Made by a program: the position numbers and the translations under genes. A stretch of 64,000 bases of DNA from Escherichia virus TH06: sequence record MT446386.1. One strand, written 5' to 3'. The notes under the pieces are model-generated. The model did no database searches and was not told where the DNA came from. It saw nothing but the letters and a program-made list of their open reading frames with translations. Shown piece after piece: positions 40,456 to 63,444 of the stretch; within the stretch, counting starts at the first letter, position 1; each line of letters begins with the position of its first letter.

Positions 40456-40466
40456 ACTGTCTACTG

Positions 40467-51591: not shown

Positions 51592-51619
51592 TTGACATGA
51601 TTTTCCTTTATAGTAATAT
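51592..51619 (+). promoter_or_regulatory. sigma70-type promoter P1 (TTGACA, 16 nt, TAATAT)
   Basis: Consensus -35, A-rich upstream tract; homologous to P0 over about 60 bp. Confidence 0.5.
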
Positions 51620-51748
51620 GAATCCCGTAGTAAGCAGTAAGTAACAACAAGTAGTAAAAACTCCTCGATAGGTGATTAGCATCACGGTAAAAGGCTTCAA
51701 CGGGGAGCGGTAGGAATACCGACAGTAAGACGCACAATGAAGGTGCTA

Positions 51749-51762
51749 CGCTCTTTAAAAAT
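51749..51762 (+). repeat. conserved box CGCTCTTTAAAAAT, copy 1
   Basis: Exact 14-mer present 3 times plus one near-copy within 700 bp. Confidence 0.4.
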
Positions 51763-51797
51763 CAGGCTAGAAAGTGAAAATATTCTTAAAAAGAGTA

Positions 51798-51826
51798 TTG
51801 ACACCAGAAAAAGCCTGATACATAAT
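51798..51826 (+). promoter_or_regulatory. sigma70-type promoter P2 (TTGACA, 17 nt, CATAAT)
   Basis: Followed by GAGCACTCA, shared with P4. Confidence 0.5.
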
Positions 51827-51858
51827 GAGCACTCATTCAGCGATGAATCAAAACATCC

Positions 51859-51872
51859 CGCTCTTTAAAAAT
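51859..51872 (+). repeat. conserved box CGCTCTTTAAAAAT, copy 2
   Basis: Exact 14-mer. Confidence 0.4.
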
Positions 51873-52127
51873 ATGATTTGTCTTACAGGTGGCGGTAACG
51901 TCATTACTATAAGGCGCTTAGTTGATCGCTAGAATTGATTCCTGATTCATACGTGAATAGGCGGACGAAGAGCAACAAAATAAGCCTCATTTGTTCGATA
52001 CTTTCAAATGGTCGATGCTTGAAAGCGCACTAGATTCCTAAAAGACAAATCAGACTTATCATCTTGCCCTTTCGCAAAGATTCAAGCGAGATAAGGGAAC
52101 GGAATAAAAGAAGATGATAAAAAGAGT

Positions 52128-52155
52128 TTGACAAGCTAACACGATGTGTTAAGCT
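52128..52155 (+). promoter_or_regulatory. possible sigma70-type promoter P3 (TTGACA with weak -10)
   Basis: Consensus -35 after AAAAAGAGT, but -10 poor; box copy 3 lies 36 nt downstream. Confidence 0.3.
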
Positions 52156-52168
52156 GTAAATGCTCCAC

Positions 52169-52182
52169 CGCTCTTTAAAAAT
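52169..52182 (+). repeat. conserved box CGCTCTTTAAAAAT, copy 3
   Basis: Exact 14-mer. Confidence 0.4.
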
Positions 52183-52285
52183 ATGAATCATAAGTTTAAG
52201 CCTCACCGCTTAATCCTCAATCAAATAAAGCTGATTGATATATCCTCCCAATAGCGGGAACGACGAAAAAAGATTAAAAAAGTGG

Positions 52286-52314
52286 TTGACAGCGAAAACA
52301 ACATGATTCATAAT
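52286..52314 (+). promoter_or_regulatory. sigma70-type promoter P4 (TTGACA, 17 nt, CATAAT)
   Basis: Followed by GAGCACTCA as in P2. Confidence 0.5.
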
Positions 52315-52404
52315 GAGCACTCACTAAGCAAATCACCGCTTCAGTGAAAAGCGCAACAACGGCTAACAGTTGCATAGCGTGAGAAAGCACGCTGATAGGT
52401 TTAC

Positions 52405-52418
52405 CGCTCTTTAATAAT
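52405..52418 (+). repeat. conserved box variant CGCTCTTTAATAAT, copy 4
   Basis: 13/14 match. Confidence 0.35.
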
Positions 52419-53086
52419 TTAAACATTCTCCTATATCGGTTGAATATGCTTGATGATAATAACCATCGGAAAGCATACCAGATAAAACGGTGTAAGATTC
52501 TCTAAACTATCAGAGAAAACAATCTTACAATCCCTTGCTGGAAACGTCACCACTGATAAACGGATTCATTGAGTGTACGCAAAGACTTAAGCTAATCGCC
52601 CACGGTTAAGGGTAGCGGCGGTCATCGCTAACAAGGCGCTACAGTGAAAGAAGTTAATCAGGGTAGGCAAGCCCGAAGAATTAACGCTCAATTGAGAGCG
52701 GCGGGGAGTGGTTAAAAAGTGGCAAATTGCTATTTAACAATAAGGTTTAGTGTGAACGTTTACGATGTGAATGATTTGAGGCCACTATCGATGGCGTACA
52801 TAGTCAGTTTATGTAGTAAACTTGCCGAAAGATATAAAACGTCAGAACATTAGACGGTCAATGACTCTTTCACAATAGCATCCCGTTGTGGGCGATGGCT
52901 AGTGATTGAGAGTTGATACAAAAGGATAGGCGAGAGCGAAAGCAAAGTAGACGATATTGCCGACGGTTACAATAAACGTAACTAATTAGAGTCGGACGCA
53001 CTGCCTTATTGTGATGATTGATCATCGCTATCAGGTCGGCTTCGTTTATAGCGACTAATTAAAGATACCAGATGAAACATCACGGA

Positions 53087-53134
53087 TAAGGGGGCGGCAA
53101 GGTTAACTCCTGATAAGACCGCCCCGCTTATCAA
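53087..53134. promoter_or_regulatory. long imperfect palindrome GATAAGGGGGCGG...CCGCCCCGCTTATC with GATAAG repeats
   Basis: Read directly; about 100 nt upstream of gene 53236. Confidence 0.3.
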
Positions 53135-53235
53135 TAATTACTTAACAATGAGTGGTTATTGATAAGTTAATAGTGACTTAAACAAGCTCATAGAGAGCGG
53201 GGCAATAGCGCCCTTACAATTGAAAGGTGAATATC

Positions 53236-54135
53236 ATGGCTAAAGTTTTTACTCTGGTTAACGAATCTGGTTTTAATGCACTGGCTAACAACATTCGTAG
53301 CAATAACGCGGCGATCAAACAAGATGTCTCTAACTTCCTGTTAGGGCACTTACAGCACTTCCGCAGTAACGGTAAAAAGCTGGACGTATTGCAGACGGCG
53401 GTTGACTTCTTGTTAACTGAACGTTTTCGTGATATGGATGTGATTGCCACTGCAATTACTTTCTTAACTCCTATCAAGTTTAACACTGATGCGGCAAATG
53501 GTCGTAAAAAGTGGATTAATCTGGAAGGTGAGGCGAAAGCTAAAGAAGACGCGAAAGAAGCGCAAATTAAAACCAAAATGGAACAAAACCGCGCTCGCTG
53601 GTCAAACGCTTTCGAAAACTTTGCTTTAGGCCGTGAAATTGAAGTCGATAACCCTAACTTTTACAAGGGTTGCAATGACAATGTGGCGGCACACCTGCAA
53701 ATCCCGGCGAAAAACAAGGAAGACTTTAACCAAGATATTTACGCTTTGGTTGAACGCTTGAATGCAATCCGTATTGAAGCCAAATTACTGGCTGATGAGC
53801 GCAACGGTGCAACTAGTGATAACACTATCGCCCTGAGTGAAGAAGTAGGAAAGGTTAAGAAATCTTTTGATTCACTCATCAAGAAAGTCACGGCCTCAAC
53901 GGTAGCGATCTCTGATAACTACCTGATGAACGCATCAAGCAAGGAATTAGAATCACTCGATTCATACGCTGATGAAATGGAAAAGACTGTTGCAGCTATG
54001 CAGGAGAAGTTAGAAAGTCTGCGCGGTCGTATCTCTTCAACGGTTGCTACCCGTACCGAACAAGCTGCGAAAGCAGAAGAGGAAGAAGTATTGCGTAAAG
54101 CGGCTGAAATTATGGCGGCACGTCAAGCGGCATAA
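53236..54135 (+). CDS. hypothetical helical protein (299 aa)
   Basis: Start moved to ATG 53236 after GAAAGGTG; preceded by about 0.9 kb without ORFs. Confidence 0.5.
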   Translation: MAKVFTLVNESGFNALANNIRSNNAAIKQDVSNFLLGHLQHFRSNGKKLDVLQTAVDFLLTERFRDMDVIATAITFLTPIKFNTDAANGRKKWINLEGEAKAKEDAKEAQIKTKMEQNRARWSNAFENFALGREIEVDNPNFYKGCNDNVAAHLQIPAKNKEDFNQDIYALVERLNAIRIEAKLLADERNGATSDNTIALSEEVGKVKKSFDSLIKKVTASTVAISDNYLMNASSKELESLDSYADEMEKTVAAMQEKLESLRGRISSTVATRTEQAAKAEEEEVLRKAAEIMAARQAA

Positions 54136-54240
54136 GTAAGACAGTTTAAATAAACATAAGGTGCTATCTTAACGGGTAGCGCCTTTTCTTTTATCAGTGC
54201 ATTGATTCAGTGCATTAATCAAAGAATTTAATCAAAGGTG

Positions 54241-54465
54241 ATGATCATGTTAATTACGCATACCACGATTTATAGGAATCTTGTCAACGGTCAACATTAC
54301 CGCCTATCTAAAAAGTATGGCGTTGAATGTAAATGTGTTATTACCGGTGAATGGTATCCGTCACCAATGAAGATTGAAACGTTGGAACGTGAAGCGATCA
54401 GCTATATTATCACGCAAGAAACAACGTTAGGCCGTATCTTAAGAAAGTTGGGATTGAGAAAATGA
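54241..54465 (+). CDS. hypothetical protein (74 aa)
   Basis: Track ORF, first ATG. Confidence 0.4.
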   Translation: MIMLITHTTIYRNLVNGQHYRLSKKYGVECKCVITGEWYPSPMKIETLEREAISYIITQETTLGRILRKLGLRK

Positions 54466-54686
54466 TATTCAGTAGCAATTTTGGCAAGTGTCCTATTTGT
54501 GAGAAACATCGCAGCACGGGAAACCATCGCAAATGTAGTAAGATATTACAGCGCCAACGTGATAACAACCATTGGGATACTGTACACGCTAATCAGCGTA
54601 AAGAAGAAGTTAAAGAAATGGCTGTTAAAGCATCCTTTGCCCAATCCACCCGTATTGAACACATCCAAAGGTATCAAGCATTATGA
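54462..54686 (+). CDS. small Cys/His-containing basic protein (74 aa)
   Basis: CPICEKH...HRKC. Confidence 0.4.
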   Translation: MIFSSNFGKCPICEKHRSTGNHRKCSKILQRQRDNNHWDTVHANQRKEEVKEMAVKASFAQSTRIEHIQRYQAL

Positions 54687-54892
54687 TCACTAATATTTCA
54701 GAGTTTAAGAAAGCGCCTTCTCGTCTGTTAGGTCGTCGTGTTGTGTATCTTTATAGCAATAAAGGTAAAGCTACAACTGGACGAATTACAACAGTAAGTA
54801 GTGTTACTAAAGGTTTGCTCAAGTTATGTGTAGATATGGACGATGGTACAATCCTGCTACGCAGTTGGAAGTCGTTTAGTTTACTTGATTAA
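54683..54892 (+). CDS. hypothetical protein (69 aa)
   Basis: Track ORF, overlapping upstream stop. Confidence 0.4.
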   Translation: MITNISEFKKAPSRLLGRRVVYLYSNKGKATTGRITTVSSVTKGLLKLCVDMDDGTILLRSWKSFSLLD

Positions 54893-54961
54893 GTTGTTTG
54901 TTCAAGCCTATCACCTTGATGGGCTTGCCCGATATAACTTATCACTAAAAGGAATAAGATT

Positions 54962-55405
54962 GTGGCTAAATCAAAAATCAGCATGAAGGGCGGGCGTTGT
55001 TTTGCTATCTCTGAACTGGAGAAAGAGAAGCCAAAGGCAACCAATCACGTCAGCAAGCGTAGTTTAAAACGTCGTGCTGCAAAGGCTGAGGCTGAATCTC
55101 ATGTTCCTTCTAGTATACCTAAGCGCGTAGGCCATCGCGTTCATCGTGCTGATGCGTTATTGTTAGCTGATCATAAACGATCTTTGTTACAGAGCGGGGG
55201 CGCTAAAACAGAAGAAGAGAAGAAGTTAGAAATCTTCTGTAATGGTCGCACCCGTGGTAAACAGAAGTTTAAGGGTAGCACGAAAGACCCGCAGGCTTTC
55301 CCTAAGACAAGCCAATGCGCACCTGATGTTTTCTACGCAGACAGTAAACATAAATGGGGCGTTGAGAAATACATTGACCCCATCAAAGAGGCAAGGGTTA
55401 AGTAG
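54962..55405 (+). CDS. basic hypothetical protein (147 aa)
   Basis: GTG start after AAGGAA; K/R-rich. Confidence 0.45.
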   Translation: MAKSKISMKGGRCFAISELEKEKPKATNHVSKRSLKRRAAKAEAESHVPSSIPKRVGHRVHRADALLLADHKRSLLQSGGAKTEEEKKLEIFCNGRTRGKQKFKGSTKDPQAFPKTSQCAPDVFYADSKHKWGVEKYIDPIKEARVK

Positions 55406-55422
55406 TAGGAATATAGCCCCTC

Positions 55423-55439
55423 TTTTAGTACTATGACGC
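55423..55439 (+). repeat. conserved 17-nt motif TTTTAGTACTATGACGC, copy 1
   Basis: Identical 17-mer also at 62143-62159; contains palindrome TAGTACTA; followed by a hairpin. Confidence 0.4.
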
Positions 55440-55484
55440 TCTTTCTGTAGCGTCGTGCCCTCTCCCCATTTGAAGATTCCGCAT

Positions 55485-55507
55485 AGCCGCCTTTGAGCGG
55501 CTTTTTG
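55485..55507 (+). terminator. rho-independent terminator
   Basis: AGCCGC-CTTTGA-GCGGCT followed by TTTTT. Confidence 0.55.
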
Positions 55508-55569
55508 CGTTGCTGTAAGTGCATTTGCGAGTGTATTTATAGCAACGGTCATGTGTTGCTTTCAGGTTT

Positions 55570-55596
55570 GCCCCGGCTACGGCTGGGGCTTTTTTA
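55570..55596 (+). terminator. rho-independent terminator
   Basis: GCCCCGGC-TACG-GCTGGGGC followed by TTTTTT. Confidence 0.65.
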
Positions 55597-55644
55597 TGCC
55601 CGTAAAACAGGAGGTATCAAGTTCTGATAACAACGGCCCAGCTA

Positions 55645-56034
55645 ATGTTGACATTGACTATTTATTATGAGGCAGGGAATCAGCCAACCGCATGTAAGGC
55701 TTTAGTTGCGGATACCGTAATAAATAGAATGGCACAACGAAAACTGACCGCTGAACAGGTGATAAGACAAAAGAACCAGTTTGAGTGGATTCCGGTACTA
55801 TTAAAACAGGAGAAACCTTATAAACGTTATGTAAAGCTGATTCGTGATAAAAATCCGATGACTAAGCAAGCCATTGGAGAAAGCGAGCGGCTAGCTAAAC
55901 GTGCCCTTAAGAAGAATTATGTTCCGCTTTATAGTGGGACTTACTTTCAGAGTAAGAGCGAAGGGGTGCCAAAATGGTATGCCAATCCTATGTATTGTGG
56001 TGATTTAGTGTTCGATAATAGCTCTAGGGAATAA
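55645..56034 (+). CDS. cell wall hydrolase, SleB-like (Hydrolase_2-type) domain protein
   Basis: LTLTIYYEAGNQPTACKALVADTVINRMAQ...QKNQFEW resembles the SleB-family N-terminal signature. Confidence 0.5.
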   Translation: MLTLTIYYEAGNQPTACKALVADTVINRMAQRKLTAEQVIRQKNQFEWIPVLLKQEKPYKRYVKLIRDKNPMTKQAIGESERLAKRALKKNYVPLYSGTYFQSKSEGVPKWYANPMYCGDLVFDNSSRE

Positions 56035-56233
56035 TCTCTAGTGCCAGATTTAACAAACTAAATTCCTTTATAAACCAACCACTTAGTAAATTTATTGAAA
56101 AAGATGGTAGTATTCTGGGACTATGGGTAATGCTCTGTATATAGACCCTTTGAAAATTTCTTAGAAAATAAGTTTACTAAATATAACTTACTTAAATAAT
56201 ATTACTTTTAATCTCTGATAAAGGGTAAATAAT

Positions 56234-56530
56234 ATGACTTTAGAGGTATATAAATTCCTTTTTGTAAGCTGTTTAACTATCAGCGTTATAGGGTTTATTG
56301 TTCTCAGAAACAAAGCAGCAAGCTGGGAGAGAATGTATAAATCTCTAGTCCGAGTGGATGAGATGTATAATGAGAAAGTTAAAGTAACACTTAATGATCT
56401 TATTATGCAAGTTGAAGACAGAAATAAGCGTCTTCAGAACCTCAACCATGAAGTATTACGACTTGCTCGTGCTAATGAAGACTTGCGAGTAGCTATTGCT
56501 AAGCAGCAGGAGATTAACAGTGAAAGTTAA
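56234..56530 (+). CDS. membrane-anchored coiled-coil protein (98 aa)
   Basis: N-terminal TM FLFVSCLTISVIGFIVL then heptad-like region. Confidence 0.45.
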   Translation: MTLEVYKFLFVSCLTISVIGFIVLRNKAASWERMYKSLVRVDEMYNEKVKVTLNDLIMQVEDRNKRLQNLNHEVLRLARANEDLRVAIAKQQEINSES

Positions 56531-56756
56531 TATTAAATCTGATCGTACAATGCTTCGATTAAATAACATGAAGCCGGGGGTTCTGTTTGAGCGTAAAGAA
56601 TCCCTTTACATCAGAACCGACACATTGTACGCAGACAATTATGTCAACTGTGTTGATGTGGTAACTGGAAAGCTCATGCCTTTTAAACGGGATGAAGTTT
56701 GCCAAGTACGCAGTGATCTCCATATAACCAACATAGAGGCTAAAGATGAAGATTAA
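56520..56756 (+). CDS. small protein, paralog family C member 1
   Basis: GTG 56520 after AGGAG gives MKVNIK N-terminus like other members; shares G.VF...Y...V.L.TG pattern. Confidence 0.45.
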   Translation: MKVNIKSDRTMLRLNNMKPGVLFERKESLYIRTDTLYADNYVNCVDVVTGKLMPFKRDEVCQVRSDLHITNIEAKDED

Positions 56757-57003
56757 TCTTGAAGTAAATGAACCGTCTTTGTGTGTTGGTGATCTCAAAC
56801 TTGGGGATGTATTCCAAATCAGGGAAACACGAGCAGATTTCTACATGGTTGTTCAGCTATTTACCTCACAGATTGAAGAGACCAAGCCTTCTGATGGGGG
56901 TTGTGTCGTCCTTAGTCTGACAAATAAGCAAGTCCTTAAACTTAGCTCGAAAAGCAAGGTTGTTCTTCTTCATGATGTTGTTATTACTAACAAGGGCAAG
57001 TAG
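56746..57003 (+). CDS. small protein, paralog family C member 2
   Basis: MKINLE..., LKLGDVFQ...FYMVV. Confidence 0.5.
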   Translation: MKINLEVNEPSLCVGDLKLGDVFQIRETRADFYMVVQLFTSQIEETKPSDGGCVVLSLTNKQVLKLSSKSKVVLLHDVVITNKGK

Positions 57004-57222
57004 ATGGAAATTAAAGTAGTTGATTATCCTAAATATGCAAATGCAGAAGATGTTAAAGGTGGTGATGTTTTCTCTTACGACAGACGTTTCTGGCTGATGT
57101 TAGAAGATAAAACTCCCGATGGTTTATGTAAGGCCGCCAATCTGAACAGCGGTTCTGTTGAAGTCTTCGGTCTATCAACCACTGTTATGCCACGCCCTGA
57201 TCTGTGTTTATCCCAAAAGTAA
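57004..57222 (+). CDS. small protein, paralog family C member 3
   Basis: MEIKVV..., VKGGDVFS. Confidence 0.5.
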   Translation: MEIKVVDYPKYANAEDVKGGDVFSYDRRFWLMLEDKTPDGLCKAANLNSGSVEVFGLSTTVMPRPDLCLSQK

Positions 57223-57230
57223 CATCGACT

Positions 57231-57333
57231 TATAGCCCTTGTGTTTATCAGAGGGCTATGTGAGGGTGTTCCTCATTAACTTATTAATTCAGGCATATGC
57301 CACACCGCTAGGGAGAGCTTGCTCGAACATCCG
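57231..57333 (+). repeat. conserved intergenic element, copy A (hairpin ATAGCCC/GGGCTAT, then GCTAGGGAGAG and CTCGAACATCCG)
   Basis: Paralogous to 62693-62804; both follow a gene stop. Confidence 0.45.
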
Positions 57334-57580
57334 GTGTTAGACTAAAACCTGTTCAATTTCGGTAGACTTTCCACTACGTAGGGGTACGTATTGGTTTGGG
57401 ATTCAGGAGATCTCCTAGGGGTAGGAGGTCTTCACCAGTTGGGATAAGAGATAGCTCTAGAACCTGAACTCTTAGGCAGAGAGGGTCGGCAATGAGTACG
57501 CGGTCAGAATTAGCCTCCTGACTAGGGCTATCCCTTATATCAACTGGCAATAATGCCTCCACTAATAAAGAGAGAACGTT

Positions 57581-57721
57581 ATGAAGAAGTCAACCAAGCG
57601 TATGAACCGTCCTGAGCGTATGGATGCAGTAGCAAATGGTGCACTGAAGATCGAGTCTGCCATGCTGCGTCTGATGGGTAACATCCGTAAGCGTCAAGGT
57701 GGTTGGGTTTACAATAACTGA
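57581..57721 (+). CDS. small basic protein (46 aa)
   Basis: ATG 57581, no stops to 57721, followed by terminator; weak RBS. Confidence 0.35.
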   Translation: MKKSTKRMNRPERMDAVANGALKIESAMLRLMGNIRKRQGGWVYNN

Positions 57722-57730
57722 TTTAATAAA

Positions 57731-57764
57731 AGGCTGCCTAGAAATAGGTGGCCTTTGTTGTTTT
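57731..57764 (+). terminator. rho-independent terminator
   Basis: AGGCTGCC...GGTGGCCT hairpin (with G-U pairs) followed by TTGTTGTTTT. Confidence 0.5.
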
Positions 57765-57887
57765 AATTAAGGGTCAACTCTTACTTAAACTAACAACGGG
57801 TGTATGGTATTGACAGGCATCGGCACGGAACTTGTTACCAACAAGGTTGGCGAATCAAGACCTCTGTGAAGCTCCGAAGAAATCAAG

Positions 57888-57914
57888 GCAGGTTCGACTC
57901 CTGCTCCCCGACCA
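57888..57914 (+). other. tRNA-like 3' fragment (perfect T-arm GCAGG-TTCGACT-CCTGC plus acceptor-like tail), no complete cloverleaf found
   Basis: GGTTCGACTCC T-loop consensus; no matching 5' acceptor strand upstream. Confidence 0.25.
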
Positions 57915-57934
57915 AATCAGCAAGAGGTGCTTAT

Positions 57935-58288
57935 ATGAGAAGCATGGTTAAAGATTGGGTAACTAAATCAGGTCTTCGTGCTGTGATTATGCACATGAAC
58001 GACTCCCACTTTTGTGGATATGTAGAGCTACCAGACAGCTTAAAACATAAAAACTTCACCGGATATAACGGGAATGAAGAAGTTTGTTATGTAAGTGTTC
58101 ATGGTGGTGTCACATGGCAAGATACCCTTGAAGAGATGGATGGTTTAGATACAATCGGATTTGATTGTGCCCATGCAGGTGATAAGACACGGTTCAACCC
58201 TAACGGGGTTCCAAGAACAGAAACGTTCTGCATCAACGAATGCGAACAAATGGCTGAACAACTAAGAGATCTCGAATCAAATGTCTAA
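57935..58288 (+). CDS. hypothetical protein (117 aa)
   Basis: Internal ATG 57935 of track ORF 57800 after AGAGGTG; track N-terminus overlaps the tRNA-like element. Confidence 0.45.
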   Translation: MRSMVKDWVTKSGLRAVIMHMNDSHFCGYVELPDSLKHKNFTGYNGNEEVCYVSVHGGVTWQDTLEEMDGLDTIGFDCAHAGDKTRFNPNGVPRTETFCINECEQMAEQLRDLESNV

Positions 58289-58457
58289 GCAAACAATCAA
58301 ACATACGCAAGCTGGTTACTCTTATATCAACTCTCCTTGTTGTGGTGCTCGTGTGAATCTGGTTAAGGAAGAGGTTCGTATCGTTCAGCGTGGCGCTACT
58401 GTTGTCCGTTCATGCTGTGTCTGTGGTAATGACATTTTTATCAAAGGTAAAGTATGA
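58281..58457 (+). CDS. small Cys-rich zinc-ribbon-like protein (58 aa)
   Basis: ATG 58281 overlaps upstream stop; SPCCG...SCCVCG. Confidence 0.4.
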   Translation: MSKQTIKHTQAGYSYINSPCCGARVNLVKEEVRIVQRGATVVRSCCVCGNDIFIKGKV

Positions 58458-58705
58458 AAAACTTCCAAGCTGCACCAATCACGAAAGTTATTTCAGTTGA
58501 TGATGTGATGATGACTGTTCCTCTGAACACTCGTTACATTGCAATTGACAAGATGGGTTATGTATGGGCTTGGAAGATTAAGCCTAGCTATAACGCACTG
58601 TTCGACGAGTTTGTTTGTACTGGTACGTATAGCCCTACGTTCTTGGGTTTGTTTGGAGAGTTCGAAGGTCAGTATAAAATCATCACTCTCCCTGCTTGTG
58701 CTTGA
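58454..58705 (+). CDS. hypothetical protein (83 aa)
   Basis: Track ORF. Confidence 0.45.
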   Translation: MKNFQAAPITKVISVDDVMMTVPLNTRYIAIDKMGYVWAWKIKPSYNALFDEFVCTGTYSPTFLGLFGEFEGQYKIITLPACA

Positions 58706-58712
58706 GGTTAGT

Positions 58713-58877
58713 ATGTTCAAGTGGTTTAAACGTCTATTCCATCTGCACGATTGGGTAATTCTCGAGAAGTATACACTAAAGATCACTGATGATTATGGTG
58801 GTACGAAACATAAAGGTTTACGTTATATCATGCAGTGCAAAACATGTGGTTGTATCACCAAGCGGGATATGATCTAA
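58713..58877 (+). CDS. small protein (54 aa) with C-terminal CxxC
   Basis: Internal ATG 58713 of track ORF 58539 after GAGGT. Confidence 0.4.
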   Translation: MFKWFKRLFHLHDWVILEKYTLKITDDYGGTKHKGLRYIMQCKTCGCITKRDMI

Positions 58878-58885
58878 ATAATTCT

Positions 58886-58961
58886 GCGCTCTTAGCTCAA
58901 TGGATAGAGCAGTAGCCTTCTAAGCTATTGGTTACAGGTTCGAGTCCTGTAGGGCGCACCA
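58886..58961 (+). tRNA. tRNA-Arg (anticodon UCU)
   Basis: 76-nt cloverleaf: acceptor GCGCTCT/AGGGCGC, D-arm GCTC/GAGC, anticodon stem GTAGC/GCTAT with loop CTTCTAA, T-arm ACAGG-TTCGAGT-CCTGT, encoded CCA. Confidence 0.8.
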
Positions 58962-59055
58962 CATTTAGGGCTAGTATGGGTGCGGCACCAGAGTTAGTGT
59001 ATCCCTGTTGAGGCAAGTGCTTTTATAACAGTGGGAATTACTTTCTTAGTGAGCT

Positions 59056-59082
59056 TCTGGTTCGATTCCAGATAGTCCACCA
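59056..59082 (+). other. tRNA-like 3' fragment (T-arm TCTGG-TTCGATT-CCAGA plus acceptor-like tail)
   Basis: GGTTCGATTCC T-loop consensus directly downstream of tRNA-Arg; no complete cloverleaf found in the preceding 115 nt. Confidence 0.25.
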
Positions 59083-59101
59083 AATCTAATAGGAGGTAAT
59101 T

Positions 59102-59401
59102 ATGAGTTGGGGTGGTGTAATATCCTTAATCTGTATCTTCCTTGTCTGTGTGGCCCTTACAGGCTGCGTACAGAGCCGCCCTGATGGGTGGTGTGCAGTA
59201 GCAGTGGATGGTATTTGTGTATCTCGCTGGCATTCAGGAAACAAGATTCCTAGTGGTGAGATTGATATGCGCTACAACGGGGCAACCTGCTCTAATGCTA
59301 ACCCTTCTATCAACGAAGAGAAGTCTACGCCAGACAATGTTGTGATCGATACAGCGTTGTGGTGTGGCGGTTCTGTAACAACAACCGGTAAGGAGTGGTA
59401 A
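59102..59401 (+). CDS. Cys-rich lipoprotein (99 aa)
   Basis: Signal peptide with lipobox LTGC (MSWGGVISLICIFLVCVALTGC); strong RBS AGGAGG. Confidence 0.55.
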   Translation: MSWGGVISLICIFLVCVALTGCVQSRPDGWCAVAVDGICVSRWHSGNKIPSGEIDMRYNGATCSNANPSINEEKSTPDNVVIDTALWCGGSVTTTGKEW

Positions 59402-59402
59402 T

Positions 59403-59564
59403 GTGACTATTGAAGAACTCATTAGAACTCTTGAAAACTTATCTGTTACTTGTGGTCCAGATGCTATCGTCTACATCGAAGAACCTTCAGGGAATGAATA
59501 CCCTGTGAAAGAGGTTCTTGAGTACTCAGTAGGAGATCTTTCATCAGTAACCCTAAGACATTGA
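59403..59564 (+). CDS. small hypothetical protein (53 aa)
   Basis: GTG start after AAGGAG; fills gap. Confidence 0.3.
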   Translation: MTIEELIRTLENLSVTCGPDAIVYIEEPSGNEYPVKEVLEYSVGDLSSVTLRH

Positions 59565-59571
59565 GGTGTAT

Positions 59572-59820
59572 ATGACAGCTCATTATTGGAATACAAAGAA
59601 GCTTCTTGAAGAGATGGCTGGGGGTAGTAAGTTCCAGTTAAACTCCATGCTTCGAATGGATGCCCGCTCTTTACGTTTCCAAGTAAAGATTGGTAACTTC
59701 AGTGATGGACTTTATTATACCTTGAAAGAAAGGATTAAGAAGACTCACTTCATCATATATGGACTCAAACCGAGAACATATGTTAACTACATGTATTGGG
59801 ATACATGCTACGATAATTGA
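59572..59820 (+). CDS. hypothetical protein (82 aa)
   Basis: ATG 59572 after GAGGTG. Confidence 0.45.
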   Translation: MTAHYWNTKKLLEEMAGGSKFQLNSMLRMDARSLRFQVKIGNFSDGLYYTLKERIKKTHFIIYGLKPRTYVNYMYWDTCYDN

Positions 59821-59827
59821 GGTTATT

Positions 59828-60049
59828 ATGTTATTTGAAGCTAAGCAAACATTACCAGTAGTTCCTTTGTCTACACTTCTTAGTGGGAGTGCTTTTAGAC
59901 ATGATAATGGTTTTTGGATTAAGGGCGACCAAGAGGTTGGAGGGTATATTACCTGCATCAACATCTGCAACGGCGTTGTTGACGGATTTCGTCCAGCCGC
60001 TGAAGTCACTCCTCAATCCAACGCAAAGGTTGTAGGTTTAGTTTACTAA
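59828..60049 (+). CDS. hypothetical protein (73 aa)
   Basis: Internal ATG 59828 of track ORF 59759 after GAGG. Confidence 0.4.
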   Translation: MLFEAKQTLPVVPLSTLLSGSAFRHDNGFWIKGDQEVGGYITCINICNGVVDGFRPAAEVTPQSNAKVVGLVY

Positions 60050-60058
60050 GGAGCCTGT

Positions 60059-60232
60059 ATGAGTTGTTTTGGTGGCGGTGAAGTAGATGACGATGATGAC
60101 ATGGAATCCAACGGTACATGCCCTGATTGTGGGTGTGAGACATTTGATGGGGTGTCAGTATATCCTGCCTGTAGTTACTCACCAGTGATCTGTAAAACAT
60201 GTGGAGATCAGCCTTGTGATCAATCTTGTTAA
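60059..60232 (+). CDS. small Cys-rich acidic protein (57 aa)
   Basis: ATG after TAAGGAG; CPDCGC...CKTCGDQPCDQSC. Confidence 0.4.
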   Translation: MSCFGGGEVDDDDDMESNGTCPDCGCETFDGVSVYPACSYSPVICKTCGDQPCDQSC

Positions 60233-60241
60233 GAGAATCTT

Positions 60242-60373
60242 ATGACTGAAGAATTTTTAGAGTGGTTTAGTGACACCTTCAAAGAATACCTATTCACTCC
60301 AGAAAGTTTAGAAGAGTTGAAAACCTACACTTGGTTGGCTTGGAGAGATAGCCGACGAAAAATGAATAAGTAA
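60242..60373 (+). CDS. small hypothetical protein (43 aa)
   Basis: ATG 60242, open to TAA 60371-60373; weak RBS. Confidence 0.3.
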   Translation: MTEEFLEWFSDTFKEYLFTPESLEELKTYTWLAWRDSRRKMNK

Positions 60374-60384
60374 GAGACGATTAA

Positions 60385-60642
60385 ATGGGTTTACTTGATA
60401 TTTTTATCTCAGTTTACTTTATTGGAGTATTCCTCTCTGTTTTAGTGCTGAAACTGCTATACAAGAAAGGTCTACTAAAAGGGGTCATTACAACAGAGTC
60501 TACCAGCTCTGAACCTGATGAGATGATGGTTGTGCTCTTAATTGTGTTGTGGCCTATCTCAATACTGGCAGGAGTTTTTTATCCAATAGGTTTGCTTCTG
60601 TTTAAAGCATATGACGCAGTTATGCATTTTATCTTTAAGTAA
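60385..60642 (+). CDS. small membrane protein with two TM helices (holin-like topology)
   Basis: Two hydrophobic segments separated by a charged loop. Confidence 0.45.
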   Translation: MGLLDIFISVYFIGVFLSVLVLKLLYKKGLLKGVITTESTSSEPDEMMVVLLIVLWPISILAGVFYPIGLLLFKAYDAVMHFIFK

Positions 60643-60932
60643 TATCGTGAAGGATTCTTACGAGAGTCCTTTGAGATAGGACTTCAGATCTCCTATCAAA
60701 CTAACATTCATGTAACTAGCCCATAAGGGCGTTACCCTTTAATAACCCAGCCCACTAAGGGGGCGGGAGTTTAGTGCTGGATTGGCTTTACGCTTATTCC
60801 TACAAAGGCAACCGATTGTTAGATCTTACATGCAATATTAACTAATAGGATAAGGGAGGATTCGTCCCCTCCCCCTATTTTATTGAATCTTTATCTAAGC
60901 AAGTCTTACATAAATATTTAATTGGAGGATGT

Positions 60933-61244
60933 ATGAAAGCTCGAAGAACTATATGGACTCCGATGCAGATTGAAAATCTTCGGAGACTAATCAAAGAGTA
61001 CTCGGTTCAAGAAGTTGCTCAGATTATGAATGTAACGGAGAATGCAGTTAACACAGCTTGTACTAAATTCGGAATATCAAGAGCTTCAGTCCGAGTTAAA
61101 TGGTCTGAAGAAGAAGATCAGTTCCTTATCCGTAATGCTGGGTTCATGCCTATTCAGAGAATGGCTGACATGCTCGGTAGAAGTTATGCTGCTGTACAGA
61201 ACAGGGCATGTATGCACCTTAATATTAGCCTCAAACTTAAATAG
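60933..61244 (+). CDS. DNA-binding protein with two tandem HTH-like repeats
   Basis: Internal repeat W...E.L...I.E-S.QEVAQIMNVTENAV / W.EEED.FL......P.QRMADMLGRSYAAV. Confidence 0.4.
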   Translation: MKARRTIWTPMQIENLRRLIKEYSVQEVAQIMNVTENAVNTACTKFGISRASVRVKWSEEEDQFLIRNAGFMPIQRMADMLGRSYAAVQNRACMHLNISLKLK

Positions 61245-61252
61245 GAATCAAT

Positions 61253-61501
61253 ATGAAGATTACTCACAAGAAAGAAGAAGTGTCCACGGTTGATATCAAC
61301 TCTCTTCCTAGTGGAGCAGTATTTAAATTCCCTGAGAGTTCTACTCTCTATGTCAAAGGGTCTGTGTCTGAAAGTCCTAATGTAACCGTTAACTCCGATC
61401 GAGCAATCACTCTTCGTCTATCTGATGGTAACGTAACAGCCCCTTCTATCTGGTGCCGAGTTGTCCCTGTATCGGCAGAACTTTTGGTGGATAATACATA
61501 A
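61253..61501 (+). CDS. small protein, paralog family C member 4
   Basis: MKITHKK..., LPSGAVFKF. Confidence 0.5.
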   Translation: MKITHKKEEVSTVDINSLPSGAVFKFPESSTLYVKGSVSESPNVTVNSDRAITLRLSDGNVTAPSIWCRVVPVSAELLVDNT

Positions 61502-61746
61502 TGAAAATCATCCCAAAGAAAAAGGATAATACGGTACGATTGGAAACAATCATTCCCGGAAACCCTTTCGTGGTTCAGAACGGAAGTGCCTCTCCTCAGT
61601 ATTACATGAGGGTTGAAAATGCTTCTGGTAACATTCGTATAGCCAGTGGTTGGGTTCCTGTGGTAAACCTTTCCACAGGTGTGTTATCTGTTAAAGGTCT
61701 TGATGATCAGGTAGAAATGATTCGTATGTCAGTGGTTCAGGAGTAG
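61501..61746 (+). CDS. small protein, paralog family C member 5
   Basis: MKIIPKK..., translationally coupled (TAATG). Confidence 0.5.
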   Translation: MKIIPKKKDNTVRLETIIPGNPFVVQNGSASPQYYMRVENASGNIRIASGWVPVVNLSTGVLSVKGLDDQVEMIRMSVVQE

Positions 61747-61751
61747 TGCAT

Positions 61752-62000
61752 ATGAGCATTATTAACATTAAAGTTAAAGACAAAGAGGAAAAAATCCTCC
61801 GCGTCAGAGATCTAAATATGTCAGATGTGTTCACTCTCCAAGAGTGCCAAAATCAAAAGGTTTATATGATGACAGCTAAAAGCAGGGGTTGTCAACCTGC
61901 TGGAGCTGTTAACCTAGGCACTGGAGAACTACGTGTCATCTCTGGTGATATGGTTGTTGGTGAGAAGTTTATTAAGGCTGAAATCATCTTAACTTCGTAG
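61752..62000 (+). CDS. small protein, paralog family C member 6
   Basis: ATG 61752 after CAGGAG; MSDVFTL...VNLGTGELRV. Confidence 0.5.
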   Translation: MSIINIKVKDKEEKILRVRDLNMSDVFTLQECQNQKVYMMTAKSRGCQPAGAVNLGTGELRVISGDMVVGEKFIKAEIILTS

Positions 62001-62142
62001 GAAAACAAATGAGACGTAAAGCATATTCTTATGACGATATGATTAACCAGAAAGGCTTCGGTCAACGACAGCCTGACGGTTCAATTATCTGGTTCGTAAA
62101 CGGACAGAAAAAGGTAGCTAAATAGGCTCTCTTCTCTCCTCC

Positions 62143-62159
62143 TTTTAGTACTATGACGC
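62143..62159 (+). repeat. conserved 17-nt motif TTTTAGTACTATGACGC, copy 2
   Basis: Identical to 55423-55439; followed by hairpin TGCGTAG...CTACGCA. Confidence 0.4.
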
Positions 62160-62231
62160 CTCTCTGTGGGCGGCCCAATTTGCGTAGGGAATTCCCTCTA
62201 CGCAGCCATAACTTTTTAAGGAATTTCCCCT

Positions 62232-62465
62232 ATGTCTAAAGTAAGCGCAATTGATGCAATCCGTCAACCATTCCAGTTCCAATCTAAATCAACCCAAACC
62301 TTCAGTGAGCCTAAGCAAATTCGCTTGGGCGGCACAGAGAAGACTGTGTTTGATCTGGCTAAAAACAAGAGCGTTACTGTAGTTGATGGTGGCACTCTGG
62401 TTAACGTTTCCCATCGCATCCGCACTGGCAAAACTGCCAAAGATCGTGCTAAGAAAGGCGAGTAA
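62232..62465 (+). CDS. hypothetical protein (77 aa)
   Basis: Track ORF. Confidence 0.45.
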   Translation: MSKVSAIDAIRQPFQFQSKSTQTFSEPKQIRLGGTEKTVFDLAKNKSVTVVDGGTLVNVSHRIRTGKTAKDRAKKGE

Positions 62466-62680
62466 TGATAACACTTGTGTCGATCGTTTACAGAATACAC
62501 TACCGTCTAGACAAAGGTAAAACCTATAAGTGCAAGAGTAAGACAGGCAATAGATGCTCTGTAGAAAACAACTCTGGTCAATGGGTGGATGTACCTTGTT
62601 GTTGGTTCAGGAAAGACTTGACTAACAAAGAAATTGACGAAATCCTTAGTGATGGTTTTGTAAAATCAAGTGATTTTTAG
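62465..62680 (+). CDS. hypothetical protein (71 aa)
   Basis: Track ORF, coupled (TAATG). Confidence 0.45.
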   Translation: MITLVSIVYRIHYRLDKGKTYKCKSKTGNRCSVENNSGQWVDVPCCWFRKDLTNKEIDEILSDGFVKSSDF

Positions 62681-62692
62681 TTGTAGTAACGC

Positions 62693-62804
62693 CTATAGCC
62701 TTCTTCGGAGGGCTATGTGAGTTATTCTGACTCAACTAACCTAATCTTGATATATTTCCCGTATGGGGCCGATGCTAGGGAGAGGAACATTCCTCGAACA
62801 TCCG
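62693..62804 (+). repeat. conserved intergenic element, copy B (hairpin ATAGCC/GGCTAT, then GCTAGGGAGAG and CTCGAACATCCG)
   Basis: Paralogous to 57231-57333. Confidence 0.45.
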
Positions 62805-62915
62805 TCGGATAGATATTTTAAGAGCAGGTTATCCACAGATATTGGGTAATATCTTTTTGTGTTTAAAGCTTGACTCTTTTCGGAGAGTCCTTTTTTAAAT
62901 TCAACGAGAGGAAAT

Positions 62916-63068
62916 ATGTCTAAATTAGATTTAAAACTGCTAGCAGCAGCGGTAGTGATTTGTGCACTAGCACTGGTAACGCAGAGAACATCTGGATTTA
63001 TTCAGTGTTTCTTTTCTGGGCAATCCACTTATCAGTGGGTTATTGACGAGTGTAAACAACAGGAGTAA
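62916..63068 (+). CDS. small membrane protein (50 aa)
   Basis: ATG after GAGAGGAAAT; N-terminal TM LLAAAVVICALALV. Confidence 0.35.
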   Translation: MSKLDLKLLAAAVVICALALVTQRTSGFIQCFFSGQSTYQWVIDECKQQE

Positions 63069-63070
63069 GT

Positions 63071-63433: not shown

Positions 63434-63444
63434 AGGTTGGTATA

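What the first reader, a model, noticed from the sequence alone, without database searches (positions are those of the whole stretch)
57231..57333. Conserved ~100-nt intergenic element present twice (57231-57333 and 62693-62804)
Both copies start with a hairpin (ATAGCC(C)...GGGCTAT followed by GTGAG) right after a gene stop, then carry GCTAGGGAGAG and CTCGAACATCCG with a variable spacer between the two motifs. Neither looks like a canonical terminator (no T-run) nor a clean sigma70 promoter. Candidate roles: promoter for an alternative polymerase or sigma, RNA processing site, or a small structured RNA.
Basis: seen in the sequence. Interest (0 to 1): 0.5.

Follow-up and report, generated by a model that had tools for sequence, protein, structure and literature searches.

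The report
New structured RNA in phage early operons
The two look-alike intergenic stretches are two copies of a previously undescribed, evolutionarily conserved folded RNA carried in the early transcripts of phiEco32-type coliphages; it is neither a promoter nor a terminator, and its exact job remains to be tested.

Summary
The three motifs occur exactly twice in 64 kb, in the same order, and nowhere else. The window is a Kuravirus (phiEco32-like) genome, and both copies lie on the sense strand of the sigma-70 early gene block, starting 9-13 nt after a stop codon.

Both copies fold into the same four hairpins:
- P1 and P2.
- P3, a 3-bp hairpin with an RUAU loop.
- P4, an outer stem, an invariant 7x7 internal loop CUAGGGN/NAACAUC, and an inner hairpin.

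The helices covary across about 100 phage genomes, the Salmonella 7-11 group and one distant Citrovirus-like contig. In the core, 98% of cells are paired against 51% or less in slid controls. The loop position next to the inner stem covaries non-canonically (A-G, C-A, A-A, never C-G), which points to a folded RNA motif. There is no Rfam match, no phage-sigma or sigma-70 promoter, and no T-run.

Copy B is followed by a double DnaA box almost identical to the ChIP-proven host nrdD site, then a conserved terminator. Copy A is followed by more conserved hairpins and a small basic protein gene.

My best reading is a protein-recognised RNA domain at the 3' end of early transcription units that sets transcript fate. 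Antitermination (nut/put-like) and processing or stability roles are live rivals. It is a new RNA family whose function is unproven.

The parts
57231..57260 (+). Copy A, P1 hairpin (UAUAGCCCUU...AGGGCUAUG), starting 9 nt after the TAA stop of ORF 57004-57222 (gp113 family)
   Evidence: Folds. The base of the stem, AUAGCC/GGCUAU, is invariant. The upper stem varies with compensation in B-type copies.
57260..57276 (+). Copy A, P2 hairpin (GUGAGG GUGUU CCUCAU)
   Evidence: The homologous P2 of copy B shows U-A to C-G and U-A to G-C double changes.
57292..57301 (+). Copy A, P3 mini-hairpin (GGC AUAU GCC)
   Evidence: The stem is GGC/GCC, GCC/GGC or CCC/GGG in different lineages, and the loop is always RUAU.
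57302..57337 (+). Copy A, P4: outer stem ACACCG/CGGUGU, internal loop CUAGGGA/GAACAUC, inner hairpin GAG-CUUG-CUC
   Evidence: Four of the six outer-stem pairs show changes on both sides. Loop letters are invariant except for one covarying non-canonical pair.
57338..57580 (+). Copy A, conserved non-coding extension up to the start codon of gp112. It holds hairpins 57371-57394 and 57406-57433, each with loop UAGGGGUA; a 58-nt segment absent in some relatives; a UAGGGCUAU box at 57523; and the gp112 ribosome-binding region.
   Evidence: Alignment, RNAalifold with compensatory changes, TAGGGGTA over-representation. The 58/59-nt indel rules out the minus-strand ORF 57374-57562.
57581..57721 (+). 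gp112, a 46-aa protein with a basic N-terminus (MKKSTKRMNRPER...), phrog_13305, followed by a terminator-like hairpin at 57729-57756. It is a possible protein partner (inference only).
57004..57222 (+). gp113-family gene (phrog_6570) immediately upstream of copy A. The same family sits immediately upstream of the element in SU7 (copy B), 7-11 and pSal-SNUABM-01. The predicted fold is an SH3-like barrel (KOW/Tudor/uL2-like).
62694..62717 (+). Copy B, P1 hairpin (UAUAGCCUUC UUCG GAGGGCUAUG), preceded by stop codons TAG, TAG and TAA at 62678-62689
62718..62734 (+). Copy B, P2 hairpin (GAGUUA UUC UGACUC)
62758..62767 (+). Copy B, P3 mini-hairpin (CCC GUAU GGG)
62769..62808 (+). Copy B, P4: outer stem CCGAUG/CGUCGG, internal loop CUAGGGA/GAACAUC, inner hairpin GAGGA-ACAU-UCCUC
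62737..62831 (+). Copy B only: long-range helix P5 (62737-62750 pairing with 62818-62831), which encloses P3 and P4 in a three-way junction
   Evidence: Predicted by RNAalifold. Cells are 93-99% paired, and three pairs in its second half change on both sides. It is not recovered for copy A.
62818..62837 (+). Double DnaA box TTAAGAGCA-gg-TTATCCACA. GGTTATCCACA is invariant in all B copies. It is near-identical to the host nrdD leader site and overlaps the 3' strand of P5.
   Evidence: ChIP-seq site tTTAAGAACAggTTATCCACAg from PMC11317965.
62837..62854 (+). Copy B, hairpin with G-rich loop (AGAUAUU GGGU AAUAUCU), positional homologue of the first UAGGGGUA hairpin of copy A. It is absent in 7-11.
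   Evidence: Read.
62863..62899 (+). Conserved intrinsic terminator (stem 62872-62889 plus a U run, with an A-tract/U-tract extension), 26 nt before the gp90 start codon
   Evidence: It is annotated as a terminator in the 7-11, SU7 and 4E8 records.

Best explanation
Shown: the two stretches are paralogous copies of one structured RNA domain, read from the + strand as an untranslated part of the sigma-70 early transcripts of a phiEco32-like phage. It consists of two 5' hairpins (P1, P2), an A/U-rich linker, a 3-bp hairpin with an RUAU loop (P3), and a bipartite helix (P4). The symmetric 7x7 internal loop of P4, CUAGGGN/NAACAUC, is invariant apart from one non-Watson-Crick pair that covaries.

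Inferred: the domain works as RNA and is recognised through that invariant loop, and through the G-rich loops that follow it, by a protein. The protein could be from the phage or the host, or it could be RNA polymerase itself. Because the domain sits at the 3' end of early transcription units, it probably decides the fate of those transcripts. It begins right after stop codons and usually follows a gp113-family gene. Copy B is followed directly by a terminator, and copy A by one small gene and then a terminator.

In this reading the stable P1-P2 hairpins cap and protect the upstream message. The P3-P4 ribonucleoprotein persists as a stable 3' fragment and/or tunes how much transcription passes the terminator downstream. 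In copy B this is combined with a host DnaA site placed between the RNA domain and the terminator.
For: - Same fold predicted independently for both copies and by RNAalifold for 12 B-type and 10 A-type sequences.
- Covariation in the core: 98.3% of cells paired, 6 of 13 pairs changed on both sides, 0/500 shuffles reach the score, slid registers 32-51%.
- Covariation in full copy B: 99.1% paired, 13 pairs changed on both sides.
- The loop pair next to the inner stem is A-G (19), C-A (11) or A-A (3), never C-G. The switch recurs in the A, B, 7-11 and L161 lineages.
- G-U pairs make up 6-14% of cells, so only the + strand folds well.
- Conserved in 98 (copy A) and 103 (copy B) phage records, including the Salmonella 7-11 group at about 73% identity. 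The core is also in a distant Citrovirus-like contig where P1 and P2 are replaced by unrelated hairpins.
- It lies inside the early genes 69-125 (PMC4281155), downstream of strong sigma-70 promoters.
- Stop codons sit directly in front of it.
- The upstream gene is phrog_6570 in four lineages and has an SH3-like/KOW/Tudor-like predicted fold.
- The terminator after copy B is conserved from Kuravirus to 7-11.
Against: - No transcript-end, probing or binding data exist, so the partner and the effect on transcripts are inference.
- The gene upstream of copy B in this window (gp91, phrog_33631) is not of the gp113 family.
- Simple 3'-end protection would not need an invariant internal loop.
- Most sequences are closely related, so the independent evidence comes from about 6 lineages.
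Confidence: 0.45

Rival explanations
1. Processive antitermination element, working like lambda nut or HK022 put. The nascent RNA, alone or with a small phage protein such as the basic 46-aa gp112 and/or the KOW/Tudor-like gp113, binds the elongating host RNA polymerase. The polymerase then reads through the terminators that follow (57729-57756 after copy A and gp112; 62872-62897 after copy B).
For: - Two copies in early operons, each starting just after a stop codon and upstream of a terminator. This layout parallels nutL-N-tL1 and cro-nutR-tR1 (established lambda biology).
- gp90 starts 26 nt after the copy B terminator with no credible promoter of its own, yet genes 69-125 are all classed as early.
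- Terminator-like hairpins are enriched in the early block: 21 found against 10.8 expected.
- gp112 has an arginine/lysine-rich N-terminus, and its family occurs in the same phage groups as the RNA.
- In 7-11 the gp112 homologue lies next to a gene matching the 'Q-like antitermination' phrog_6060.
- gp113's fold class includes NusG/Spt5 KOW and the RNAP-binding CarD/UvrD Tudor domains.
Against: - The core model finds nothing in the HK022 immunity region that holds putL and putR.
- No boxA is present.
- Strong terminators at 54158 and 55570 lie upstream of copy A.
- In 7-11 the gp112 homologue is 12 kb from the RNA.
- None of the functional steps has been tested.
Confidence: 0.2
2. Pure processing and stability cassette, like the RNase III sites between T7 early genes. 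A host RNase cuts in the A/U-rich linker or in P4. P1-P2 then protects the upstream mRNA from 3' exonucleases, and P3-P4 protects the downstream RNA. No dedicated partner is involved.
For: - Intercistronic position right after stop codons.
- Stable hairpins without a U run.
- A single-stranded A/U-rich linker between P2 and P3.
- In the distant L161 copy the 5' hairpins are replaced by other hairpins, as expected if only their stability matters.
Against: - The invariance of 13 loop nucleotides and the isosteric-type covariation of one loop pair go beyond what an RNase E or RNase III site needs.
- P1 (9-12 bp) and P4 (6 + 3-5 bp) are short for RNase III.
Confidence: 0.15
3. Trans-acting small RNA released from the 3' end of the gp91 message, running from P1 to the terminator (about 205 nt). 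Its segment 62816-62857 is antisense to the host nrdD leader (-55 to -14 from the ATG) and would alter synthesis of the anaerobic ribonucleotide reductase.
For: - The segment matches one site in 5423 of 5426 E. coli genomes, the nrdD leader, in antisense orientation.
- The leader is conserved in Salmonella and Citrobacter.
- The RNA ends in a terminator with a U tail.
Against: - The shared sequence is exactly the ChIP-proven double DnaA box of nrdD, so a DNA-level reading suffices.
- Half of the segment is predicted to be paired inside the phage RNA as the P5 helix.
- Salmonella phages do not track the Salmonella-specific flank.
- Copy A has no host match.
Confidence: 0.07
4. Riboswitch-type attenuator: P1-P4 is a ligand-binding aptamer that controls the terminator downstream.
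For: - A conserved multi-helix fold with invariant unpaired nucleotides.
- In copy B, a terminator downstream and upstream of a cluster of amidoligase, glutamine amidotransferase and ATP-grasp genes.
Against: - No common downstream gene: gp112, gp90, an endolysin in 7-11, and small ORFs in L161.
- The terminator does not overlap the aptamer and lies 64 nt away.
- Copy A has no adjacent terminator.
- No Rfam riboswitch match even at E <= 10.
Confidence: 0.05
5. DNA-level signal: a promoter for the phage sigma gp36, a replication origin or single-strand initiation hairpins, or a recombination cassette.
For: - A strong DnaA site lies next to copy B.
- Repeated promoter cassettes exist elsewhere in the early region.
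Against: - No AATGTA on either strand.
- The compensatory changes include conserved G-U pairs that would be C-A mismatches on the other strand.
- The non-canonical covarying pair has no meaning in duplex DNA.
- Copy A has no DnaA box.
Confidence: 0.05

Closest known systems
Lambda nutL/nutR with N protein, and HK022 putL/putR RNAs (processive antitermination sites)
   Same: - Two copies of a structured RNA element in host-RNAP early operons.
- Each copy lies just after a stop codon and upstream of terminators.
- One copy lies immediately upstream of a small basic protein gene, as nutL does before N.
- The stems vary while the loop nucleotides are conserved.
   Different: - No boxA or boxB.
- No similarity to the HK022 put region when searched with the covariance model.
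- The element is larger (about 110 nt, four hairpins) and has a 7x7 internal loop.
- Antitermination activity is untested.
T7 early-region RNase III processing sites (R0.3-R1.3)
   Same: Repeated, conserved, irregular hairpins with internal loops placed between early genes. They leave a 3' hairpin that stabilises the upstream mRNA.
   Different: - The helices here are shorter than two helical turns.
- The loop sequence is invariant.
- The element has four hairpins.
- Cleavage is untested.
3'-UTR-derived small RNAs of enterobacteria (e.g. CpxQ, SroC; recalled from general knowledge)
   Same: Copy B runs from just after a stop codon to the operon's intrinsic terminator, with a U tail.
   Different: - It is much more structured.
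- Its conserved nucleotides lie in an internal loop rather than in a linear seed.
- Copy A has no terminator of its own.
Double DnaA box of the E. coli nrdD leader (PMC11317965)
   Same: The segment 62818-62837 next to copy B has the same architecture and 19 of 20 identical bases. GGTTATCCACA is invariant across all B copies.
   Different: - It is a DNA site adjacent to, and partly overlapping, the RNA domain. It is not the repeated element itself.
- It is inverted relative to the direction of transcription when compared with nrdD.
- It is absent from copy A.

Membership tests
Any Rfam 15 family (4227 covariance models) | Score at or above the gathering threshold, or at least a suggestive E-value | tested here: not met
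   The whole window at gathering threshold gives only the tRNA. At E <= 10, copy A gives no match, and copy B gives only chance miRNA and snoRNA hits outside or at the edge of the element.
Intrinsic (Rho-independent) terminator | G+C-rich hairpin immediately followed by a U run | tested here: not met
   P1, P2 and P4 are not followed by a U run, and the scan lists none inside the element. A separate true terminator lies at 62872-62897.
Sigma-70 promoter | -35 and -10 hexamers with 16-18 bp spacing, conserved among relatives | tested here: not met
   The only match is 9/12 at 62727-62756. Its -10/TG is changed in most relatives. Copy A has none.
phiEco32 gp36 (phage sigma) middle/late promoter | AATGTA centred at -11.5 (PMC12276001); TGATGT in 7-11 (PMC4331800) | tested here: not met
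   Neither motif occurs on either strand of 57200-57580 or 62660-62915. TAATGTAT does occur elsewhere in the window.
HK022 put RNA | Sequence and structure similarity to putL/putR | tested here: not met
   The core model, searched without filters over HK022 24500-40751, gives only E >= 0.4 noise.
HK022 put RNA | Acts in cis on RNA polymerase to suppress downstream terminators without protein factors | not testable with these tools
   This needs in vitro transcription or reporter assays.
Lambda-type nut site | boxA (CGCUCUUA / GCUCUUUA) followed by a boxB hairpin bound by an arginine-rich N protein | tested here: not met
   No boxA string on the + strand of either region. gp112 has a basic N-terminus, but binding is untested.
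T7-type RNase III site | About 20 bp or more of coaxial duplex, often with an internal loop; cleaved by RNase III | tested here: inconclusive
   P4 has 6 bp, a 7x7 loop and 3-5 bp. P1 has 9-12 bp. This is borderline in length, and cleavage cannot be tested here.
Riboswitch | Conserved aptamer consistently upstream of functionally related genes, with an overlapping expression platform | tested here: not met
   The downstream genes differ in every lineage. The terminator lies 64 nt from P4 and is present only in copy B.
Kink-turn | Three-nucleotide bulge, then tandem sheared G-A/A-G pairs flanked by C and NC helices | tested here: not met
   A 5'-GA/3'-AG step next to the inner helix is present, and its A-G pair covaries as A-G/C-A/A-A. 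However, the loop is symmetric 7x7, and no canonical helix follows the G-A pairs on the non-bulged strand (read).
Protein-coding gene (minus-strand ORF 57374-57562, annotated 'hypothetical protein' in some records) | Reading frame kept among relatives | tested here: not met
   A 58/59-nt indel lies inside it, and the conservation follows the hairpins.
DnaA box (for the segment adjacent to copy B) | TTATCCACA consensus, paired with a second weaker box 2-3 bp away | tested here: met
   TTAAGAGCA-gg-TTATCCACA at 62818-62837. This is the same layout as the ChIP-seq nrdD site. Binding to the phage DNA itself is untested.

The most novel reading that the evidence does not exclude
The RNA domain, the SH3/KOW-like gp113-family protein encoded just upstream and the basic 46-aa gp112 encoded just downstream form a new RNA-dependent system. 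This system would modify host RNA polymerase (processive antitermination) in the sigma-70 early operons of phiEco32/7-11-type phages. In copy B it would be gated by host DnaA bound to a captured copy of the nrdD operator, so read-through into the downstream early genes would sense the replication and nucleotide status of the cell.
Probability: 0.1. Interest if true: 0.85.

Novelty: new variant of a known kind. Interest (0 to 1): 0.62.

Why it matters
phiEco32 is a model for phage control of bacterial transcription through its sigma factor gp36 and the RNAP inhibitor gp79. No RNA element has been described in it, and the papers I could read do not mention one. Here is a conserved RNA domain, always present in two copies and kept in about 100 genomes and in the Salmonella 7-11 group. 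Its invariant internal loop and non-canonical covariation are the signature of a specific RNA-protein or RNA-RNAP interaction.

If it controls read-through or transcript stability, it would explain how a 25-kb early block studded with terminators is expressed. It would also add a new class beside nut and put.

The adjacent near-copy of the host nrdD DnaA operator suggests that the phage reads, or titrates, the host replication initiator. That idea can be tested directly.

Tried and rejected
- **Loose pattern scan.** The stricter patterns gave two further chance hits, L146 and L163, which lie in coding sequence or lack a complementary outer stem.
- **Rfam.** Nothing at gathering or permissive thresholds.
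- **Paralogy of flanking genes within the window.** gp113 and gp91 are unrelated, as are gp112 and gp90. The repeat is therefore not a gene duplication in this genome.
- **Relatives of the distant contig L161.** Erwinia phage Pecta and Citrobacter phage CVT22 lack the element. BLAST with the L161 version finds no further isolates.
- **A partner protein shared by all carriers.** Only an Srd-like sigma-70 decoy links L161 to the 7-11 group, and the window has none.
- **Antisense phage-sigma promoter.** The reverse complement GGATGTTC does not fit AATGTA.
- **HK022 put.** No similarity.
- **Copy A region against 5426 E. coli genomes.** No match.
- **A long-range helix like P5 for copy A.** RNAalifold does not predict it, and my manual pairing (AUUAAC with GUUAAU) breaks in phiEco32 and EP335.
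- **Pairing of the A-type P2 loop with the P4 strand.** GG(G/A)UGUUC is complementary to GAACAUCC, but this is absent in B copies, so it is left as unexplained.
- **gp112 against the PDB.** Nothing.
- **The two key phiEco32 transcription papers (PMC3275717, PMC2587145).** Neither is held in the library.
- **RNA-RNA duplex prediction of copy B against the nrdD leader.** Uninformative, because the long inputs give spurious extended duplexes.

Full report
**Observation.** With no mismatch allowed, each motif occurs only at these two loci, on the + strand and in the same order:
- GCTAGGGAGAG at 57307 and 62774.
- CTCGAACATCCG at 57322 and 62793.
- GGGCTATGTGAG at 57253 and 62710.

Matches with one or two mismatches are at the level of shuffled controls, so the signal is the collinear exact triple. 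Each copy begins shortly after a stop codon. ORF 57004-57222 ends 9 nt before the first hairpin. ORF 62465-62680 ends 13 nt before it, with two further in-frame stops (TAG, TAA) in between.

**Genome and setting.** The window is a Kuravirus (phiEco32-like podophage of E. coli). A 7-kb query around the finding matches 145 phage records at 80-99% identity. In phiEco32 numbering, copy A lies between genes 113 and 112 (a 358-nt gap) and copy B between genes 91 and 90 (a 235-nt gap). Genes 69-125 are the early class, transcribed by host sigma-70 RNA polymerase (SU10 paper PMC4281155). Near-consensus sigma-70 promoters lie upstream on the same strand at 49337, 51592, 51798 and 52286. Both copies are therefore read in the sense direction as untranslated parts of early transcripts.

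**Structure.** Folded separately, the two copies give the same architecture:
- P1, a 9-12 bp hairpin whose base AUAGCC/GGCUAU is invariant.
- P2, a second hairpin directly abutting P1.
- An A/U-rich linker.
- P3, a 3-bp hairpin with loop RUAU.
- P4, a 6-7 bp outer stem, a symmetric 7x7 internal loop CUAGGGA/GAACAUC, and a 3-5 bp inner hairpin.

The 'variable spacer' is the inner hairpin.

**Covariation.** The helices differ between copies and lineages while remaining complementary:
- The P4 outer stem is ACACCG/CGGUGU, UCACCG/CGGUGA, CCGAUG/CGUCGG, UUCGGUG/CGCCGAA or AAUAGCG/CGCUAUU.
- P3 is GGC/GCC, GCC/GGC or CCC/GGG.

I aligned 51 instances (33 distinct) to a covariance model of the P3-P4 core. 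In that alignment 98.3% of cells are standard pairs, 6 of 13 pairs show changes on both sides, and none of 500 shuffles reaches the covariation score. Sliding the 3' partners by 1-3 columns drops pairing to 32-51%. That alignment was fitted to the structure. However, RNAalifold on plain MAFFT alignments of 12 B-type and 10 A-type sequences predicts the same helices independently. Counting on the B alignment gives 99.1% paired and 13 pairs changed on both sides, against 52% or less for slid registers. Most sequences are close relatives, so the independent evidence comes from roughly six lineages: Kuravirus A, Suseptimavirus A, Kuravirus B, Suseptimavirus B, the 7-11 group and L161.

**A non-canonical pair.** The last loop position on the 5' strand and the first on the 3' strand, next to the inner stem, are A-G in 19 distinct sequences, C-A in 11 and A-A in 3, and never C-G. 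The A-G to C-A switch recurs within the B copies, within the 7-11 group, between the A subtypes and in L161. Together with the neighbouring G and A, this makes a 5'-GA/3'-AG step. From memory of the RNA isostericity tables, A-G, A-A and C-A substitute for each other in trans Hoogsteen/sugar-edge (sheared) pairs. I did not test that here. Such covariation has no meaning in duplex DNA and argues for a folded RNA motif.

**Strand.** Conserved G-U pairs make up 6-14% of paired cells. They would be C-A mismatches on the opposite strand, so the sense strand is the one that folds.

**Distribution.**
- Copy A is found in 98 phage records and copy B in 103, all at 80% or more query coverage.
- The B hits include six Salmonella phages of the 7-11 group (Moazamivirus) at about 73% identity.
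- In 7-11 I searched 61.7-86.5 kb and found one copy.
- Escherichia phage EcoN5 carries a tandemly duplicated B copy.
- Exact-pattern scans of IMG/VR, metagenomes and GTDB genomes returned the same phage groups. They also returned one distant case, L161.
- L161 is a 48.7-kb contig binned as a Flavobacterium MAG, but its genes resemble Citrovirus phages of enterobacteria. It has P3 (CCC AUAU GGG) and P4 with the exact loop, preceded by unrelated hairpins and followed by a hairpin with a G-rich loop.
- Its sequenced relatives Pecta and CVT22 lack the element.

The scans required exact core motifs, so more divergent members would have been missed.

**Beyond the given coordinates: copy A.** Copy A continues as conserved non-coding sequence up to the gp112 start codon. 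It contains two hairpins (57371-57394 and 57406-57433), each with loop UAGGGGUA and compensatory stem changes. It also contains a 58/59-nt segment absent in LAMP, MN05 and the SU7 group, and a further UAGGGCUAU box. The indel length excludes the minus-strand ORF 57374-57562, which some records annotate as a gene.

**Beyond the given coordinates: copy B.** In copy B, RNAalifold pairs the P2-P3 linker (62737-62750) with the segment after P4 (62818-62831). This makes a three-way junction around P3 and P4, and three pairs in its second half change on both sides. I could not establish the same helix for copy A. Downstream follow a hairpin with loop GGGU (62837-62854) and a conserved intrinsic terminator (62872-62897), 26 nt before the gp90 start.

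**The DnaA site.** GGTTATCCACA (62827-62837) is invariant in every B copy, while its surroundings diverge in the Salmonella phages. The segment 62816-62857 matches one place in 5423 of 5426 complete E. coli genomes. That place is the nrdD leader, 14-55 nt before the start codon, in inverted orientation. The host sequence tTTAAGAACAggTTATCCACAg is the 'double DnaA box' at which DnaA binding was shown by ChIP-seq (PMC11317965). The phage has tTTAAGAGCAggTTATCCACAg. The leader is conserved in Salmonella and Citrobacter rodentium. I therefore read this segment as a DnaA-binding site on the DNA, placed between the RNA domain and the terminator. It also forms the 3' strand of P5 and would be antisense to nrdD mRNA. 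The antisense reading is weaker, for three reasons. The DNA reading suffices. Half the segment is paired internally. The Salmonella phages do not follow the Salmonella-specific flank.

**Neighbouring proteins.**
- The gene directly upstream of the element belongs to phrog_6570 in copy A of the window (gp113), in copy B of SU7, in 7-11 and in pSal-SNUABM-01. The matches in the last two are weak (E = 2e-4 and 3.5e-4). In copy B of the window the upstream gene is the unrelated gp91.
- gp112, directly after copy A, is 46 aa with a basic N-terminus (MKKSTKRMNRPER). Its family occurs in the same phage groups as the RNA (106 records). In 7-11 it lies 12 kb from the RNA, beside a gene matching a 'Q-like antitermination' PHROG.

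**What it is not.**
- No Rfam family matches, even at E <= 10.
- There is no U run after P1, P2 or P4.
- There is no conserved sigma-70 promoter.
- The gp36 consensus AATGTA and the boxA strings tested are absent from the element; AATGTA was checked on both strands.
- There is no similarity to the HK022 put region.
- It is not a kink-turn, because the loop is symmetric and lacks the required helix.
- It is not coding.

**Mechanism.** What is shown is a conserved, duplicated, structured RNA domain in the early transcripts. Everything about its action is inference. I favour a protein-recognised (or RNAP-recognised) domain that marks the 3' end of early transcription units and sets transcript fate, for these reasons:
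- It starts at stop codons.
- It is usually tied to the gene upstream.
- It is followed by a terminator, directly in copy B and after one small gene in copy A.
- Its conserved letters sit in loops rather than in a linear seed.

The strongest rival is nut/put-like antitermination. The layout parallels nutL-N-tL1 and cro-nutR-tR1, and gp90 has no promoter of its own behind a conserved terminator. A processing and stability cassette without a dedicated partner is the next rival. A trans-acting anti-nrdD RNA, a riboswitch and DNA-level signals are less likely. I put about 0.9 on 'functional structured RNA' and about 0.45 on the transcript-fate reading as worded.

**Novelty.** Neither Rfam 15 nor the searchable literature on phiEco32 or Kuravirus mentions this RNA. 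The two primary phiEco32 transcription papers could not be read, so an earlier passing mention cannot be excluded. It is a new RNA family of a familiar general kind: structured elements in phage early operons.

Noticed in passing
window 62816-62857: This segment is a near-copy of the E. coli nrdD leader. It includes the double DnaA box TTAAGAGCA-gg-TTATCCACA, which differs by one base from the ChIP-seq-proven host site. It lies between RNA copy B and its terminator. The 11-mer GGTTATCCACA is invariant from Kuravirus to Salmonella phage 7-11.
   Followed up: yes
window 57371-57394 and 57406-57433 (also 57523-57531): Two hairpins with the identical 8-nt loop UAGGGGUA and compensatory stem changes, plus a UAGGGCUAU box. 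With CUAGGGA in P4 this makes four UAGGG motifs in the 358-nt gap. TAGGGGTA occurs 5 times in the window against 1.1 expected.
   Followed up: partly
window 57266-57273 versus 57325-57332: In copy A the P2 loop plus 3' arm, GG(G/A)UGUUC, is fully complementary to the P4 loop strand GAACAUCC. The G/A variant keeps the pairing (G-U versus A-U). This is not so in copy B, and I have no explanation for it.
   Followed up: no
window 57581-57721: gp112 is a 46-aa protein with a lysine/arginine-rich N-terminus, in phrog_13305 (unknown function). Its ribosome-binding region is part of the conserved non-coding block. Homologues occur in 106 phage records, the same groups that carry the RNA.
   Followed up: partly
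[not shown]
   Followed up: partly
window 49280-49356, 51535-51611, 51786-51841, 52274-52329, 56052-56102: Repeated cassettes carrying near-consensus sigma-70 promoters (TTGACA...TATAGT or CATAAT) with a conserved upstream AAATTCCTTTA box. They are probably the early promoter modules.
   Followed up: no
window 48000-64000: Terminator-like hairpins are about twice as frequent as in shuffles (21 against 10.8), and most are on the + strand inside the early block. Strong examples lie at 54158, 55570, 57729 and 62872.
   Followed up: no
window 58886-58961: A tRNA-Arg(UCU) gene lies between the two copies. It is conserved in relatives.
   Followed up: no
L170 3638-4350 (Salmonella phage 7-11, record 82133-82845): An unannotated 710-nt gap follows the gp112 homologue. 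It gives a sub-threshold match to the permuted tmRNA family (29.6 bits, E = 4.5e-4, at 3912-4056) and contains GGTTCGAATCC-type T-arm sequences. ARAGORN finds nothing there.
   Followed up: partly
L140 7555-7613 and 9073-9131 (Escherichia phage EcoN5): A tandem duplication of about 1.5 kb carries gp92-gp91, RNA copy B, gp90 and gp89. This genome therefore has three copies of the element.
   Followed up: no
L161 (contig JBOFGJ010000684.1, labelled Flavobacterium sp. MAG): The contig's genes resemble Citrovirus phages of Erwinia, Citrobacter and Klebsiella, and it carries an Srd-like sigma-70 decoy. It is probably a phage contig binned with the wrong organism.
   Followed up: partly
window 25055-25065 (- strand): A second exact GGTTATCCACA lies inside ORF 25004-26056. 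It has no obvious second box next to it and may be chance.
   Followed up: partly
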